Origin: a virus
UHGV virus genome: UHGV-0211472
Direction: 5' to 3' (one strand)
Length of the DNA stretch: 64,000 nucleotides
Each line of letters begins with the position of its first letter. The first letter of the stretch is position 1. Both the position numbers and the translations under genes were made by a program. This document shows, in pieces, positions 35,561 to 37,591 of the stretch. Under the pieces are notes generated by a model. It was not told where the DNA came from, made no database searches, and worked only from the letters and a program-made list of their open reading frames with translations.

Positions 35561-37591
35561 TTAACCTCTATTCAATGAACATTTAGGAGAATTACAATAA
35601 ACTTGATTCATAGAACCAAGCGTACAACTTTCAGCATCGCGCCACGGAATCTGCTTAAAACACTCTGAGCAGTATCCGAGGGTTGACCACATTGCTTTGG
35701 TGAAGTCAGTGCTTCGGTTTCCGTCGAAGCTGACAACAGTTTTGCGGAGAGCTGTTCGTAATTCAGGAAACACACCTGCTTTCTCAGCAGGTTCCTCCTT
35801 TTTTGGCTTAGTTGAGATTGCAAAAACACTGTTGCTACGTTTCTCAACATAAGCATCAACAACATCCTCCAGAGTGATGCCTGTCTGTTTCGCTGAGGAA
35901 GGTAATACAGTCATACGACCGATCATATCTTCAGTTACACGTAAAGCAAATTCAGGACGACGGGAGTTTGTTGTATCTGTTGCTTTAATCCAGACATAAC
36001 CATCTTTGATCGTAGCATTAGATACTTTCTTCTTTACTTCTACAGCGCAGACTTTACAGATATCTTCACCACGAAGACGGCTGAGTTCTTCATCGAACTC
36101 ATTCTCTGTTTTAACTTCACCACAGATTTCACAAACACCAATAGGAGTCTCCTCCTCTTCTTCCTCTTTAGGTTTAGTCAAACCTTCCAGACATTCAGGA
36201 TGCCAGTAGCACTGATATGCGAAGACTGCTTTAGGTGCATCCTTCCAATCAATGTGTTTGTCACAACCGCCACAATCACCATGAGAATGTGCTTCCCAGA
36301 ATTTACGAGTGATAGTAACGCCATTCTTGTTAACGAAACTATCATTCATATCAAAAGGGATATCATCATCGAAGTCAGCAGTAGTTGACTCAGGCTCCTT
36401 TTTCTCCAGAGATGGGTCAACAAAACGACCTGCTGTGATCACTAAACGAACCATAGCATTAACTTCGGAGATGCAGGATACTGTCCCACGGTAAACAATT
36501 TTAGGATCTTTCAGTGCGTCCTGATAAGCCTTAATGTCTACGTTATGAACATCACCTTCGATATACTCTTGAGACTTCTCATCGTAGATATAACCGATCA
36601 TCTTACCACGAGAAGGAACAGCACCAGAAGTTGCATAAGGAACAAACTCATGCGGAGTGATCTCTACAGTCATATCGCGACGGATATCAATGTTTCGATC
36701 GCTTGCGATTTTGTTTTGACTTACTACTGCGTTTCTTCGACGAACATCTGCCGCTGTCACTCCCGGCTTCGTGTCGTAAGGATTGCTTGTACTGCTTTTT
36801 GAGGAGCTTTGATAGCTGCTTTGGCTGTAGTTGTTCGAGTAGTAACTGGCCCAACGATTGACTACCGTAAAAACCGGAAGCTCATGGGCGACCTCTTCAA
36901 CCAATGTCATGCTATTGTTTGACATGTCAAAGATATACTCTGTACCAACCTTACATTCAAAATGCTCATCAATACGGTTCTTGTGAGACTTTGAACGCTT
37001 CAGAATCCACATCAGCATATCTTCTTCAGAAGCACCAAACCAATCTTTATTACAACGTGCGAGATGGAAAGGACGTTCTTCGTTACGGATGATATGAAGA
37101 CGGTTATCAGAAGCATCATGCCAGATTAAGGTGAAAGCACCATCCAGCTTTTGAATAGTCTCTGCTGCACCAATAGTGTTAATAGAGTGGCAGATGTTCT
37201 CACTGTCTACCTCGAAGTTTTTACTGTCAGGTAACAGGTCTTGGTCTATCAAGGTTCCGTTATGAACCAGAGTGATGTTACCGTGTTGGAAAGGATGGGC
37301 GTTCTTGGCGTTAACTGCACCTTTCGTTGCATGACGGCTGTGACCAACAATCCATGAAGGTGCTACAGTGTAAGATGTTTCACCAGTGGTATGCTTCTTA
37401 TACTCATCTTGTAGGATGAATGCGAAAGAAGGAAGAGCTTCTTTATAAGTGAAGACTTCCTTAGTACTTTTACGCTGACCAAAGATACCAGAGGAATGTT
37501 GTCCTCGGAATACTCCAGCATAAAAGAGTTGGTTGAATACGTCTAAATCGGTGCTTGACAGATTGCCGCCAGCTAATACGATGCCACAAAT
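35561..37591 (-). CDS. Class II glutamine amidotransferase (Ntn) domain fused to Cys-rich zinc-ribbon domain; ATT start
   Basis: Track ORF 35561..37252 (TTG start) continues in frame upstream to stop-K-I-C; extension encodes CGIVLAGG...RGQHSSGI...GHSRHATKG...HNGTL with Cys directly after ATT at 37591..37589; AGGTGG 8 nt upstream. Confidence 0.6.
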   Translation of the reverse strand: MCGIVLAGGNLSSTDLDVFNQLFYAGVFRGQHSSGIFGQRKSTKEVFTYKEALPSFAFILQDEYKKHTTGETSYTVAPSWIVGHSRHATKGAVNAKNAHPFQHGNITLVHNGTLIDQDLLPDSKNFEVDSENICHSINTIGAAETIQKLDGAFTLIWHDASDNRLHIIRNEERPFHLARCNKDWFGASEEDMLMWILKRSKSHKNRIDEHFECKVGTEYIFDMSNNSMTLVEEVAHELPVFTVVNRWASYYSNNYSQSSYQSSSKSSTSNPYDTKPGVTAADVRRRNAVVSQNKIASDRNIDIRRDMTVEITPHEFVPYATSGAVPSRGKMIGYIYDEKSQEYIEGDVHNVDIKAYQDALKDPKIVYRGTVSCISEVNAMVRLVITAGRFVDPSLEKKEPESTTADFDDDIPFDMNDSFVNKNGVTITRKFWEAHSHGDCGGCDKHIDWKDAPKAVFAYQCYWHPECLEGLTKPKEEEEEETPIGVCEICGEVKTENEFDEELSRLRGEDICKVCAVEVKKKVSNATIKDGYVWIKATDTTNSRRPEFALRVTEDMIGRMTVLPSSAKQTGITLEDVVDAYVEKRSNSVFAISTKPKKEEPAEKAGVFPELRTALRKTVVSFDGNRSTDFTKAMWSTLGYCSECFKQIPWRDAESCTLGSMNQVYCNSPKCSLNRG

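What the first reader, a model, noticed from the sequence alone, without database searches (positions are those of the whole stretch)
37253..37591. Glutamine amidotransferase catalytic domain only reachable from a non-canonical ATT start
The track ORF 35561..37252 begins at TTG, but the same frame continues 113 codons upstream to a TAG, reading stop-K-I-C-G-I-V-L-A-G-G... This segment has the class II amidotransferase N-terminal nucleophile motifs (CGIV..., RGQHSSGI, GHSRHATKG, HNGTL). These enzymes need Cys as the first residue after Met removal. The only codon before Cys is ATT (37591..37589), preceded by AGGTGG at an 8 nt spacing. A 6 bp hairpin AAGGGT-tt-ACCCTT sits just 5' of this RBS.
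Basis: partly seen in the sequence, partly recalled or inferred. Interest (0 to 1): 0.7.

Follow-up and report, generated by a model that had tools for sequence, protein, structure and literature searches.

The report
ATT start codon of phage amidotransferase
A phiEco32-like coliphage gene for an amidotransferase whose catalytic cysteine must be the protein's first residue almost certainly starts at the rare codon ATT, and about a quarter of related phage genes use the same trick (ATT or ATC preceded by a small RNA hairpin and a ribosome-binding site), which the cell's own infC gene is known to use for regulation.

Summary
On the minus strand the frame reads TAG(37597-95) AAA ATT(37591-89) TGT(Cys), with AGGTGG 8 nt upstream and a hairpin just 5' of it. 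The window is a phiEco32-like Kuravirus and the gene is the phi32_83 homologue, a class-II (Ntn) glutamine amidotransferase. GenBank records for phiEco32 (2008), SU10 and Bas92 already start this CDS at the ATT. Many other records truncate it.

Codons 1-113 are under purifying selection. The leader is the most conserved block of a four-genus alignment (56 invariant nt) and is present in 99 phage genomes.

Across 122 unique homologous loci, the codon before the catalytic Cys is ATG in 84, ATT in 23, ATC in 8, TTG in 6 and GTG in 1. In 26 of 30 ATT/ATC loci an in-frame stop leaves no canonical alternative. ATT/ATC loci are free-standing and carry a hairpin abutting a strong SD (22/30, against 4/76 for ATG). 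ATG loci are translationally coupled to the upstream gene.

Best reading: SD-driven initiation at AUU, then Met removal exposing Cys1, an infC-like weak start. There is no experimental proof of the N-terminus.

The parts
35561..37591 (-). Full amidotransferase CDS from ATT to TAA. 676 codons; mature protein 675 aa, 76.0 kDa. Homologue of phiEco32 phi32_83.
   Evidence: PHROG 4736 matches residues 1-516 with protein residue 1 (Cys) at profile position 2.
37589..37591 (-). ATT, the proposed initiation codon.
   Evidence: Annotated as the start in EU330206, KM044272 and PQ850610. ATG, ATT or ATC sits at the homologous codon in 115 of 122 loci.
37586..37588 (-). TGT, the catalytic N-terminal nucleophile Cys (residue 1 after Met removal).
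   Evidence: Invariant C1 in alignments A1-A3. Aligns to residue 1 of PurF 1ecb.
37253..37588 (-). The 112 codons of the Ntn glutaminase domain that are lost if the gene is called from TTG 37252.
   Evidence: Syn/nonsyn 39-48 versus 22-25. Pfam GATase_6/7/4 span residues 75-192, across the TTG.
37595..37597 (-). In-frame TAG two codons before the Cys. It is also the stop of the mini-ORF.
   Evidence: Conserved in all leader-sharing lineages. L109 has TAG TAA.
37592..37599 (-). 8-nt A-rich spacer ATTAGAAA between the SD and ATT.
   Evidence: Identical in BUCT695 and L025.
37600..37605 (-). Shine-Dalgarno AGGTGG. The equivalents are AGGCGG in BUCT695 and AGGAGG in L025.
   Evidence: Anti-SD duplex -5.9 kcal/mol.
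37607..37620 (-). Hairpin AAGGG-UUUA-CCCUU, ending 15 nt before the ATT and 1 nt before the SD.
   Evidence: Hairpins of unrelated sequence occupy the same position in 22 of 30 ATT/ATC loci versus 4 of 76 ATG loci. 24 of 31 observed versus 4.0 expected from shuffles.
37595..37624 (-). Mini-ORF ATG AAA GGG TTT ACC CTT CAG GTG GAT TAG (MKGFTLQVD*), in frame with the amidotransferase and ending 3 nt before the ATT.
   Evidence: Present only in the phiEco32 clade and BUCT695 (MKGLTLQAD*).
37633..37637 (-). AAAGG, an SD-like element 8 nt before the mini-ORF ATG. It lies inside a degenerate gp36-promoter-like motif, AAAGGTTAAT.
   Evidence: Relatives have AAATGTAA here. The gp36 core is AATGTA (PMC12276001).
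37584..37639 (-). 56-nt block invariant across Kuravirus, Nieuwekanaalvirus and Suseptimavirus.
   Evidence: 99 phage records carry it at 92-100% identity.
37643..37663 (-). GC-rich stem-loop GTGCCTCT-ggtaa-AGGGGCAC after the amidoligase stop, followed by AATTT. Terminator-like.
   Evidence: Annotated as 'terminator' in MK373770. The stem sequence differs in SU7/ECBP2 (GCGCTCT/AGGGCGC).
37671..38774 (-). Upstream gene, the Amidoligase_2 homologue of phi32_84. Its stop lies 79 nt before the ATT, so it is not coupled.

Best explanation
The gene is a full-length class-II (Ntn) glutamine amidotransferase whose translation starts at AUU 37591-37589.

Proposed mechanism:
1. A 30S subunit binds the AGGUGG Shine-Dalgarno 8 nt upstream.
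2. Initiator fMet-tRNA decodes AUU.
3. Deformylase and methionine aminopeptidase remove the Met, so that Cys becomes residue 1 and can act as the nucleophile.

The start is part of a recurrent module: a small hairpin abutting a strong SD, a 6-8 nt spacer, then AUU or AUC. About a quarter of this phage gene family uses it whenever the gene is free-standing. Relatives with AUG are instead translationally coupled to the upstream gene.

By analogy with infC, which uses AUU or AUC and is discriminated by IF3, the module probably gives low, IF3-sensitive expression. The hairpin probably helps 30S docking or protects a sparsely translated mRNA.

Shown: the sequence anatomy, the selection on the N-terminal codons, the codon alternation at the homologous position, the exclusion of canonical starts, the hairpin association, and the coupled versus free-standing split.

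Inferred: that AUU is actually decoded by initiator tRNA, the Met removal, the IF3 sensitivity, and the role of the hairpin.
For: Anatomy:
-.

Domain identity, with the Cys aligned to PurF residue 1:
-.
- Invariant C1, R85, N110-G111 and D128-S129.

The N-terminal codons are translated:
- Syn > nonsyn and about 50% third-position identity.

Leader conservation:
- 56 nt invariant, the top block in 3.6 kb.
- Present in 99 genomes.
- Nearly identical in Aeromonas phage BUCT695, whose protein groups with the ATG-type GAP52.

Start-codon pattern across the family:
- 122 loci: ATG 84, ATT 23, ATC 8, TTG 6, GTG 1, ATA 0.
- 26 of 30 ATT/ATC loci have no canonical in-frame start after the preceding stop.
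- ATT/ATC occurs in at least 9 clades that have ATG sisters.

Hairpin ending 12-17 nt before the start:
- 22/30 versus 4/76.
- Cluster-collapsed: 16/20 versus 6/61, Fisher 7e-9.
- 24/31 observed versus 4.0 expected from shuffles.

Coupled versus free-standing:
- Upstream-ORF gap median 45 nt for ATT/ATC versus 1 nt for ATG.
- Sister pairs L255/Asterion versus L254, and L252 versus L253/L271.

Literature:
- infC uses AUU or AUC under IF3 control (PMC5499595).
- AUU gives about 1/6-1/8 of AUG expression, and the infC junction gives 1/4 (PMC3592434).

Prior annotation of the ATT start:
-.
Against: - There is no protein-level or ribosome-profiling evidence for the N-terminus. The SU10 MS search used the truncated 63.8-kDa entry.
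- The window's SD is only moderate (-5.9 kcal/mol).
- Invariance of all 56 leader positions is more than an SD, a hairpin and a start codon need, so an extra function is likely and unexplained. Candidates are the mini-ORF, a protein-binding site or a promoter remnant.
- Local folding of the region is not more stable than shuffles (z about 0).
- The hairpin statistics are only partly corrected for relatedness.
- IF3 sensitivity is purely an analogy.
Confidence: 0.8

Rival explanations
1. Same AUU start, but reached mainly by termination-reinitiation. Ribosomes translate the 9-codon mini-ORF (SD-like AAAGG, 8 nt, AUG 37624), melt the hairpin and terminate at UAG 37597-95. The 30S subunit is then captured by AGGUGG and restarts at AUU 3 nt downstream, as at the thrS-infC junction UAA-GGU-AUU.
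For: - The mini-ORF and its geometry.
- The infC junction has stop-3 nt-AUU, and about half of its output is re-initiation (PMC3592434).
- No promoter is listed between the amidoligase and the GATase in SU10, so the mini-ORF lies on the early polycistronic mRNA.
- Every mini-ORF position is invariant across three genera.
- ATG-type relatives are normally coupled, so a mini-ORF could restore coupling.
Against: - The mini-ORF exists only in the phiEco32 clade and BUCT695.
- 21 of 31 ATT/ATC loci have no ATG-started mini-ORF ending near the start.
- L025 and L109 share the SD-spacer-ATT core but lack the ATG.
- BUCT695 lacks the AAAGG element.
- The two substitutions in BUCT695 are both nonsynonymous (F->L, V->A), so there is no sign of selection on the peptide.
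Confidence: 0.13
2. The protein starts at the upstream ATG 37624. The UAG is read through by a near-cognate or suppressor tRNA, and the 12-residue leader (MKGFTLQVD-X-KI) is removed autocatalytically to expose the Cys, as with the propeptide of Bacillus subtilis PurF (the PurF propeptide is from general knowledge).
For: - The ATG is in frame exactly 12 codons before the Cys.
- The distant relative L017/L043 has an open 12-codon leader, MTVFIRLGDEKI-C, with GAG where the window has TAG.
Against: - There is no tRNA gene in the 64-kb window.
- L109 has a double stop, TAG TAA, directly before the ATT.
- Other ATT/ATC lineages have TAA or TGA stops 4-7 codons upstream and no ATG.
- The close relatives of L043, L047 and L087, have in-frame stops at -9 and -5.
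- Readthrough would add its own inefficiency to the requirement for an unproven self-cleavage.
Confidence: 0.04
3. The N-terminal domain is not made. The real product is the 563-aa protein from TTG 37252 (as annotated for phage Paul), and the upstream 113 codons are a decaying remnant.
For: Several GenBank records annotate truncated forms: Paul from TTG, SU7/ECBP2 from an internal ATG, KBNP1711 from GTG, Asterion from GTG.
Against: - The TTG lies inside the conserved HNGTL|IDQD core of the domain.
- The upstream codons are under purifying selection, with no frameshift or stop in any of four genera or in distant lineages.
- The truncation points differ between annotators, i.e. they are gene-caller artefacts.
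Confidence: 0.02
4. Sequencing or assembly error: the true codon is ATG.
For: A single G->T change would suffice.
Against: The identical ATT is present in 99 independently sequenced phage genomes and in metagenomic contigs. Unrelated lineages have ATT or ATC at the same codon.
Confidence: 0.01

Closest known systems
infC (IF3) start site of E. coli and other bacteria
   Same: - AUU or AUC start codon preceded by an SD.
- AUA is not used.
- In the window the upstream ORF stops 3 nt before the AUU (UAG-AAA-AUU versus thrS-infC UAA-GGU-AUU).
- The weak start is conserved over long evolutionary distance (PMC5499595, PMC3592434).
   Different: - infC regulation is an autoregulatory loop of IF3 on its own mRNA. 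Here the product is an unrelated enzyme and IF3 dependence is untested.
- infC is not reported to have the hairpin abutting the SD.
[quoted passage not shown]
pcnB (poly(A) polymerase I) AUU start in E. coli
   Same: An AUU start used to limit synthesis of an enzyme (Binns and Masters 2002, cited in PMC5499595).
   Different: It is a single chromosomal gene, with no family-wide recurrence, no associated hairpin and no requirement for a specific residue 2.
phi32_83 of phage phiEco32 (ABY52884 / YP_001671828)
   Same: The orthologous gene (96% DNA identity) with an identical leader. Its GenBank CDS starts at the same ATT.
   Different: None in sequence terms.
Class-II (Ntn, PurF-type) glutamine amidotransferase domains of PurF, GlmS and AsnB
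   Same: - N-terminal Cys nucleophile.
- R-G-x-x-S-x-G, G-H-x-R-x-A-T, H-N-G and D-S-E motifs.
- Profile hits of 4e-10 to 2e-8, with the Cys aligned to PurF residue 1.
   Different: - No synthase domain of known type follows. The C-terminal ~480 aa has no Pfam match and carries several CxxC pairs.
- The gene sits in a phage amidoligase / ATP-grasp / GGCT-like cluster of unknown product.
Bacillus subtilis PurF propeptide processing
   Same: An Ntn amidotransferase in which residues precede the catalytic Cys in the reading frame. L017/L043 has an open 12-codon leader.
   Different: In the window the leader is closed by TAG two codons before the Cys, so a propeptide would need readthrough.

Membership tests
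Class-II (Ntn/PurF-type) glutamine amidotransferase domain | Significant match to family sequence models. | tested here: met
   Pfam GATase_6 at 54.6 bits (cut-off 27) and GATase_7 at 27.9 bits (cut-off 25). Profile A1 versus PDB: GlmS 1xff 4.3e-10, PurF 1ecb 2e-8, AsnB 3.5e-7.
Class-II (Ntn/PurF-type) glutamine amidotransferase domain | Catalytic Cys at position 1 of the mature chain. | tested here: met
   The Cys is invariant (C1 in A1, A2, A3). It aligns to residue 1 of mature E. coli PurF. It is always the codon directly after the start in 122 loci. Actual Met removal is not testable here.
Class-II (Ntn/PurF-type) glutamine amidotransferase domain | Oxyanion-hole Asn-Gly and glutamine-binding Arg/Asp motifs. 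| tested here: met
   Invariant G82-H83-x-R85-x-A87-T88, H109-N110-G111 and D128-S129. These align to GlmS HTRWATHG, VHNG and DTE.
Class-II (Ntn/PurF-type) glutamine amidotransferase domain | Four-layer alpha-beta-beta-alpha Ntn fold. | not tested
   No structure prediction was run. The sequence evidence was judged sufficient.
Class-II (Ntn/PurF-type) glutamine amidotransferase domain | Glutaminase activity coupled to an acceptor (synthase) domain or partner. | not testable with these tools
   The C-terminal 480 aa has no family match. The neighbouring amidoligase and ATP-grasp genes are candidate partners.
infC/pcnB-type non-canonical AUU/AUC initiation | AUU or AUC at the only position from which the conserved reading frame can start. 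| tested here: met
   TAG lies two codons upstream with no ATG/GTG/TTG between. The same holds in 26 of 30 ATT/ATC relatives.
infC/pcnB-type non-canonical AUU/AUC initiation | Shine-Dalgarno sequence at functional spacing. | tested here: met
   AGGTGG with an 8-nt spacer. GGAGG-type SDs at 6-8 nt in the other ATT/ATC loci.
infC/pcnB-type non-canonical AUU/AUC initiation | Initiator tRNA decodes the codon, so the protein N-terminus maps there. | not testable with these tools
   The only proteomics found (SU10) searched the truncated 63.8-kDa entry.
infC/pcnB-type non-canonical AUU/AUC initiation | Expression repressed by IF3 (start-codon discrimination). | not testable with these tools
   Analogy only. 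The codon spectrum (ATT 23, ATC 8, ATA 0) matches that stated for infC (PMC5499595).
Propeptide-processed Ntn amidotransferase (B. subtilis PurF type) | An open in-frame N-terminal extension from a start codon to the catalytic Cys. | tested here: not met
   TAG 37597-95 interrupts the frame. L109 has TAG TAA. An open leader is seen only in L017/L043.
Programmed UAG readthrough / suppression | A phage suppressor tRNA or a recoding signal shared by relatives. | tested here: not met
   No tRNA in the window. No Rfam recoding element reaches threshold. Relatives use TAA, TGA or TAG at varying positions.

The most novel reading that the evidence does not exclude
A dedicated translation-initiation module has been repeatedly gained, lost or swapped in a widespread phage Ntn-amidotransferase family. 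It consists of a 5-7 bp hairpin stacked against a strong SD, a 6-8 nt spacer, then AUU or AUC (never AUA). It serves as the free-standing alternative to translational coupling.

Under this reading the module works as an infC-like sensor. Enzyme synthesis would track IF3 activity or initiation fidelity in the infected cell, and the hairpin would be mechanistically required for productive initiation at the weak codon. This family would then be the second gene family, after infC itself, with systematic AUU/AUC use.

The fully invariant 56-nt Kuravirus leader would additionally encode a regulatory mini-ORF or a protein-binding operator.
Probability: 0.3. Interest if true: 0.75.

Novelty: new variant of a known kind. 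Interest (0 to 1): 0.55.

Why it matters
1. Annotation. A widespread phage enzyme, present in 340 cultured-phage records, is truncated in many GenBank and RefSeq entries because gene callers ignore ATT/ATC. The truncations remove the catalytic nucleophile. Examples are Paul, SU7, ECBP2, KBNP1711, BUCT695 and Asterion.

2. Translation biology. Natural AUU/AUC starts are very rare, and PMC5499595 names only infC and pcnB in E. coli. A protein family in which a quarter of members use them, always with a hairpin next to the SD and as the alternative to coupling, gives a natural comparative system. It can be used to ask what makes a weak start codon work and why it is selected.

3. Tractability. 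The module occurs in cultivable E. coli, Klebsiella and Aeromonas phages, so it is directly testable.

4. Phage biology. It suggests that the dose of this glutaminase must be kept low or conditional. That is a clue to the still unknown function of the amidoligase / GATase / ATP-grasp cluster.

Tried and rejected
- **Rfam scan of the leader:** only sub-threshold chance hits.
- **tRNA scan for a suppressor:** none found.
- **Larger RNA structure:** folding of 86-nt and 171-nt contexts gives z-scores of 0.01 and -0.63. Only the small hairpin is supported. A possible lower stem, UUAAUU/GAUUAG, is not conserved in BUCT695.
- **Sigma-70 promoter/terminator scan:** nothing relevant on the minus strand near the leader.
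- **Hairpin as the 5' end of a transcript from a gp36-type promoter:**
  - Relatives carry AAATGTAA just upstream, and the core AATGTA is centred at -11.5 (PMC12276001).
  - However, the window's motif is degenerate (AAAGGTTAAT), and the SU10 promoter table lists nothing there.
  - I keep this only as a lead for other lineages.
- **Single-sequence phmmer against PDB:** no hit. The profile search was needed.
- **Metagenome scan with the 17-mer GATTAGAAAATNTGTGG:** The 3 real hits all have ATT.
- **Bacterial genome scan:** the subfamily is essentially absent from cellular genomes. The hits are short phage-like contigs.
- **Mini-ORF as a general feature:** rejected, because it is absent from most ATT/ATC loci.
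- **SU10 proteomics as evidence for the N-terminus:** rejected, because the database entry was the truncated form.
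Full report
**What is there**

The window is a phiEco32-like Kuravirus (96% identity to phiEco32, Paul, SU10 and others). On the minus strand the frame of the TTG-started ORF 35561..37252 stays open for a further 114 codons up to TAG 37597-37595. It reads TAG AAA ATT TGT GGC ATC GTA..., that is, stop-K-I-C-G-I-V-L-A-G-G.

- ATT is at 37591-37589 and Cys (TGT) at 37588-37586.
- AGGTGG is at 37605-37600, followed by the 8-nt spacer ATTAGAAA.
- The hairpin AAGGG-UUUA-CCCUU is at 37620-37607.

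It opens a 9-codon mini-ORF (MKGFTLQVD*) that spans the hairpin and the SD and ends at that same TAG, 3 nt before the ATT.

**What the protein is**

- Pfam GATase_6 scores 54.6 bits against a cut-off of 27, and GATase_7 also matches.
- PHROG 4736 matches from residue 1, with the Cys at profile position 2, behind the family's Met.
- A profile of nine diverse N-terminal domains hits GlmS (4e-10), PurF (2e-8) and AsnB in PDB. Profile position 1 (Cys) aligns to residue 1 of mature E. coli PurF.
- The Cys, the GHxRxAT arginine, the HNG oxyanion pair and the DS(E) motif are invariant.

So this is a class-II Ntn amidotransferase domain whose nucleophile must be the first residue. The TTG at 37252 falls inside the HNGTL|IDQD core, so the TTG-started ORF cannot be the functional unit.

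The gene lies between an Amidoligase_2 gene (37671..38774) and an ATP-grasp gene, in the cluster that is also conserved in LUZ24-like and many other phages. The product of that cluster is unknown.

**Is the N-terminal part translated?**

Yes, by the selection test. Against KBNP1711, SU7 and ECBP2, which belong to three other genera, codons 1-113 show 39-48 synonymous and 22-25 nonsynonymous codon differences. Third-position identity is only about 50%. There is no frameshift or stop in any relative.

**Is it an error?**

No. 99 phage records carry the leader, 68 of them at 99% identity or more, and so do metagenomic contigs.

**Prior annotation**

- The phiEco32 GenBank record of 2008 (EU330206, phi32_83), its RefSeq copy, SU10 (KM044272) and BASEL phage Bas92 annotate a 2031-nt CDS beginning exactly at this ATT.
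- Other records truncate the gene at arbitrary downstream ATG, GTG or TTG codons: Paul, SU7, ECBP2, KBNP1711, BUCT695 and Asterion.
- The SU10 proteomics detected the protein (9 peptides), but the tabulated expected mass, 63.8 kDa, equals the TTG-truncated form. The full mature protein is 76.0 kDa. Those data therefore say nothing about the N-terminus.

**Comparative evidence for the start codon**

I collected homologous loci from viral contigs, cultured phages and a few genome contigs and read the codon directly before the catalytic Cys.

- In 122 unique loci it is ATG in 84, ATT in 23, ATC in 8, TTG in 6, GTG in 1 and ATA in 0.
- ATT/ATC is scattered over at least nine clades that have ATG sisters.
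- In 26 of 30 ATT/ATC loci there is no ATG, GTG or TTG between the preceding in-frame stop and the Cys. The stop is often only 1-7 codons away and can be TAG, TAA or TGA.
- A GGAGG-type SD lies 6-8 nt upstream.

This leaves initiation at AUU/AUC as the only general way to make these enzymes.

**A module, not just a codon**

ATT/ATC loci carry a 5-7 bp hairpin whose sequence differs completely between lineages. Its 3' end is always 12-17 nt before the start, that is, 0-4 nt from the SD.

| Comparison | ATT/ATC | ATG or control | Source |
|---|---|---|---|
| Hairpin ending 12-17 nt before the start | 22/30 | 4/76 | |
| Same, collapsed to clusters of >=60% protein identity | 16/20 | 6/61 (Fisher 7e-9) | |
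| Same, collapsed at >=50% identity | 8/12 | 3/38 (p = 1e-4) | |
| Observed versus dinucleotide shuffles of the same leaders | 24/31 | 4.0 expected | |

Within groups that share the SD-spacer-start sequence, the stems differ but stay complementary:
- AAGGG/CCCTT, AAGGGA/TCCCTT and TCAAGCT/AGCTTGA.
- CCGTA/TACGG, AGACTAA/TTAGTCT, ACTTAC/GTAAGT and ACGACA/TGTCGT.

The two start types also differ in operon architecture.
- In ATG loci the upstream ORF ends a median of 1 nt before the start, and 61 of 78 end within 15 nt. The typical junctions are TAAnATG or TAATG, which is translational coupling.
- In ATT/ATC loci the gap has a median of 45 nt, and only 2 of 30 are within 15 nt.
- Sister pairs with almost identical N-termini show the swap directly. 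L255 and Klebsiella phage Asterion (hairpin + GGAGG + ATT) pair with L254 (no hairpin, TTG). L252 (hairpin + ATT) pairs with L253 and L271 (no hairpin, ATG).

**The Kuravirus leader**

- In a four-genus alignment of 3.6 kb, the leader is the longest invariant run, 56 nt (37639..37584). The next longest is 21 nt and the background invariance is 0.54.
- The same block, with 2 substitutions in 40 nt, is found in Aeromonas phage BUCT695. That phage's protein is only 54% identical and groups with the ATG-type GAP52.
- The core GGNGG-ATTAGAAA-ATT-TGTGG recurs in L025, and nearly so in L109 (ATTAGTAA spacer, TGC Cys codon).

An SD, a hairpin and a start codon do not explain invariance at every position, so something else constrains this block. 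Candidates are the mini-ORF, a protein-binding operator, or a promoter remnant. On the promoter idea, relatives have AAATGTAA where the window has AAAGGTTAAT, and the gp36 promoter core is AATGTA (PMC12276001). However, the SU10 promoter table lists no signal here.

**Mechanism**

Best supported (confidence about 0.8) is SD-driven initiation at AUU with initiator tRNA, followed by Met removal to expose Cys1.

The closest known system is infC.
- According to PMC5499595 it uses AUU or AUC in all bacteria as the target of IF3 discrimination. The phage family shows the same codon pair and also avoids AUA.
- The window additionally copies the thrS-infC junction geometry, a stop, 3 nt, then AUU. In reporter assays that junction gave twice the output of a single-cistron AUU and a quarter of AUG, about half of it by re-initiation (PMC3592434).
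- A re-initiation contribution from the mini-ORF is therefore plausible in Kuraviruses. It cannot be the general mechanism, because most ATT/ATC loci lack such an ORF.

UAG readthrough followed by propeptide self-cleavage was suggested by L017/L043, which has an open 12-codon leader with GAG in place of TAG. It is unlikely, for three reasons:
- There is no suppressor tRNA in the window.
- L109 has TAG TAA directly before its ATT.
- Other lineages have TAA or TGA stops and no upstream ATG.

Still inferred rather than shown:
- **Why a weak codon?** A free-standing strong SD with AUG would probably overproduce a glutaminase that is normally made at coupled, low levels. AUU/AUC also makes output depend on IF3.
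- **Why the hairpin?** It may dock on the 30S platform or stack on the SD helix to prolong 30S residence at a poor codon. Alternatively it may protect a sparsely translated mRNA from 5'-end-dependent decay.

**Verdict**

For this particular gene the ATT start is already in GenBank, so the locus itself is not new.

As far as I could find, two things are undescribed. First, the ATT belongs to a recurrent hairpin-SD-AUU/AUC module used by about a quarter of a large phage enzyme family as the alternative to translational coupling. Second, the Kuravirus leader is an invariant 56-nt element containing an infC-like stop-3 nt-AUU junction. Experimental confirmation of the N-terminus is still missing.

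Noticed in passing
window 37595..37624 (-): A 9-codon mini-ORF, MKGFTLQVD*, in frame with the amidotransferase. It has AAAGG 8 nt before its ATG, spans the hairpin and SD, and ends 3 nt before the ATT. It is conserved (MKGLTLQAD*) in Aeromonas phage BUCT695 but absent from most other ATT/ATC lineages.
   Followed up: yes
window 37643..37663 (-): A GC-rich stem-loop, GTGCCTCT-ggtaa-AGGGGCAC, directly after the amidoligase stop and followed by AATTT. It is annotated as a terminator in MK373770. The stem differs but stays paired in SU7/ECBP2 (GCGCTCT/AGGGCGC). It is not listed among the SU10 terminators.
   Followed up: partly
window 37628..37640 (-); L007, L009, L015, L016, L031-L035: Relatives carry TTTAAATGTAA(A/T) just upstream of the SD or hairpin, which resembles the phage sigma gp36 promoter core AATGTA. 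In the window the motif is degenerate (TTTAAAGGTTAAT), and the T->G change creates the SD-like AAAGG of the mini-ORF.
   Followed up: partly
window 35561..37000 (-), C-terminal ~480 aa of the protein: No Pfam match. There are several paired CxxC motifs (GDCGGCDK...YQCYWHPEC; GVCEICGE...DICKVCA; GYCSECFK...VYCNSPKC) suggesting zinc ribbons, and an acidic KEEEEEE stretch. The acceptor or partner function is unknown.
   Followed up: no
GenBank/RefSeq records MN045231, MZ342906, NC_018859, NC_023593, NC_070977, PV891806: The amidotransferase is annotated from arbitrary downstream TTG, ATG or GTG codons, which removes the catalytic Cys. EU330206, NC_010324, KM044272 and PQ850610 annotate the ATT start.
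   Followed up: yes
L071, L075, L102, L254, L255, L317 (Asterion): A shared motif, TTAGAAAATAA(T/A), lies immediately 5' of the hairpin, or of the SD in the hairpin-less sister L254. It may be a promoter that places the hairpin at the transcript 5' end.
   Followed up: no
L107-L110 (Herbiconiux daphne NZ_JANLCJ01 scaffolds 207, 320, 514, 669): Four very short contigs (560-924 bp) of an actinobacterial assembly encode different phiEco32/7-11-like amidotransferase fragments, three with visible starts (TTG, GTG and ATT). They look like phage contamination of the assembly.
   Followed up: no
window 14761..15141 (-): A stop-to-stop open frame of 126 codons whose first canonical start is at codon 122. 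It is the only other long start-less frame besides the amidotransferase, and is probably a non-coding frame overlapping a real gene.
   Followed up: no
L043/L017 and L251: Two ATT/ATC-type loci have an in-frame ATG 11 codons upstream of the ATT/ATC start codon (12 codons before the Cys), the same distance as in the window's mini-ORF, but without an intervening stop (MTVFIRLGDEKI-C; MQDKVERWGSNI-C). These could make a PurF-like propeptide form.
   Followed up: partly
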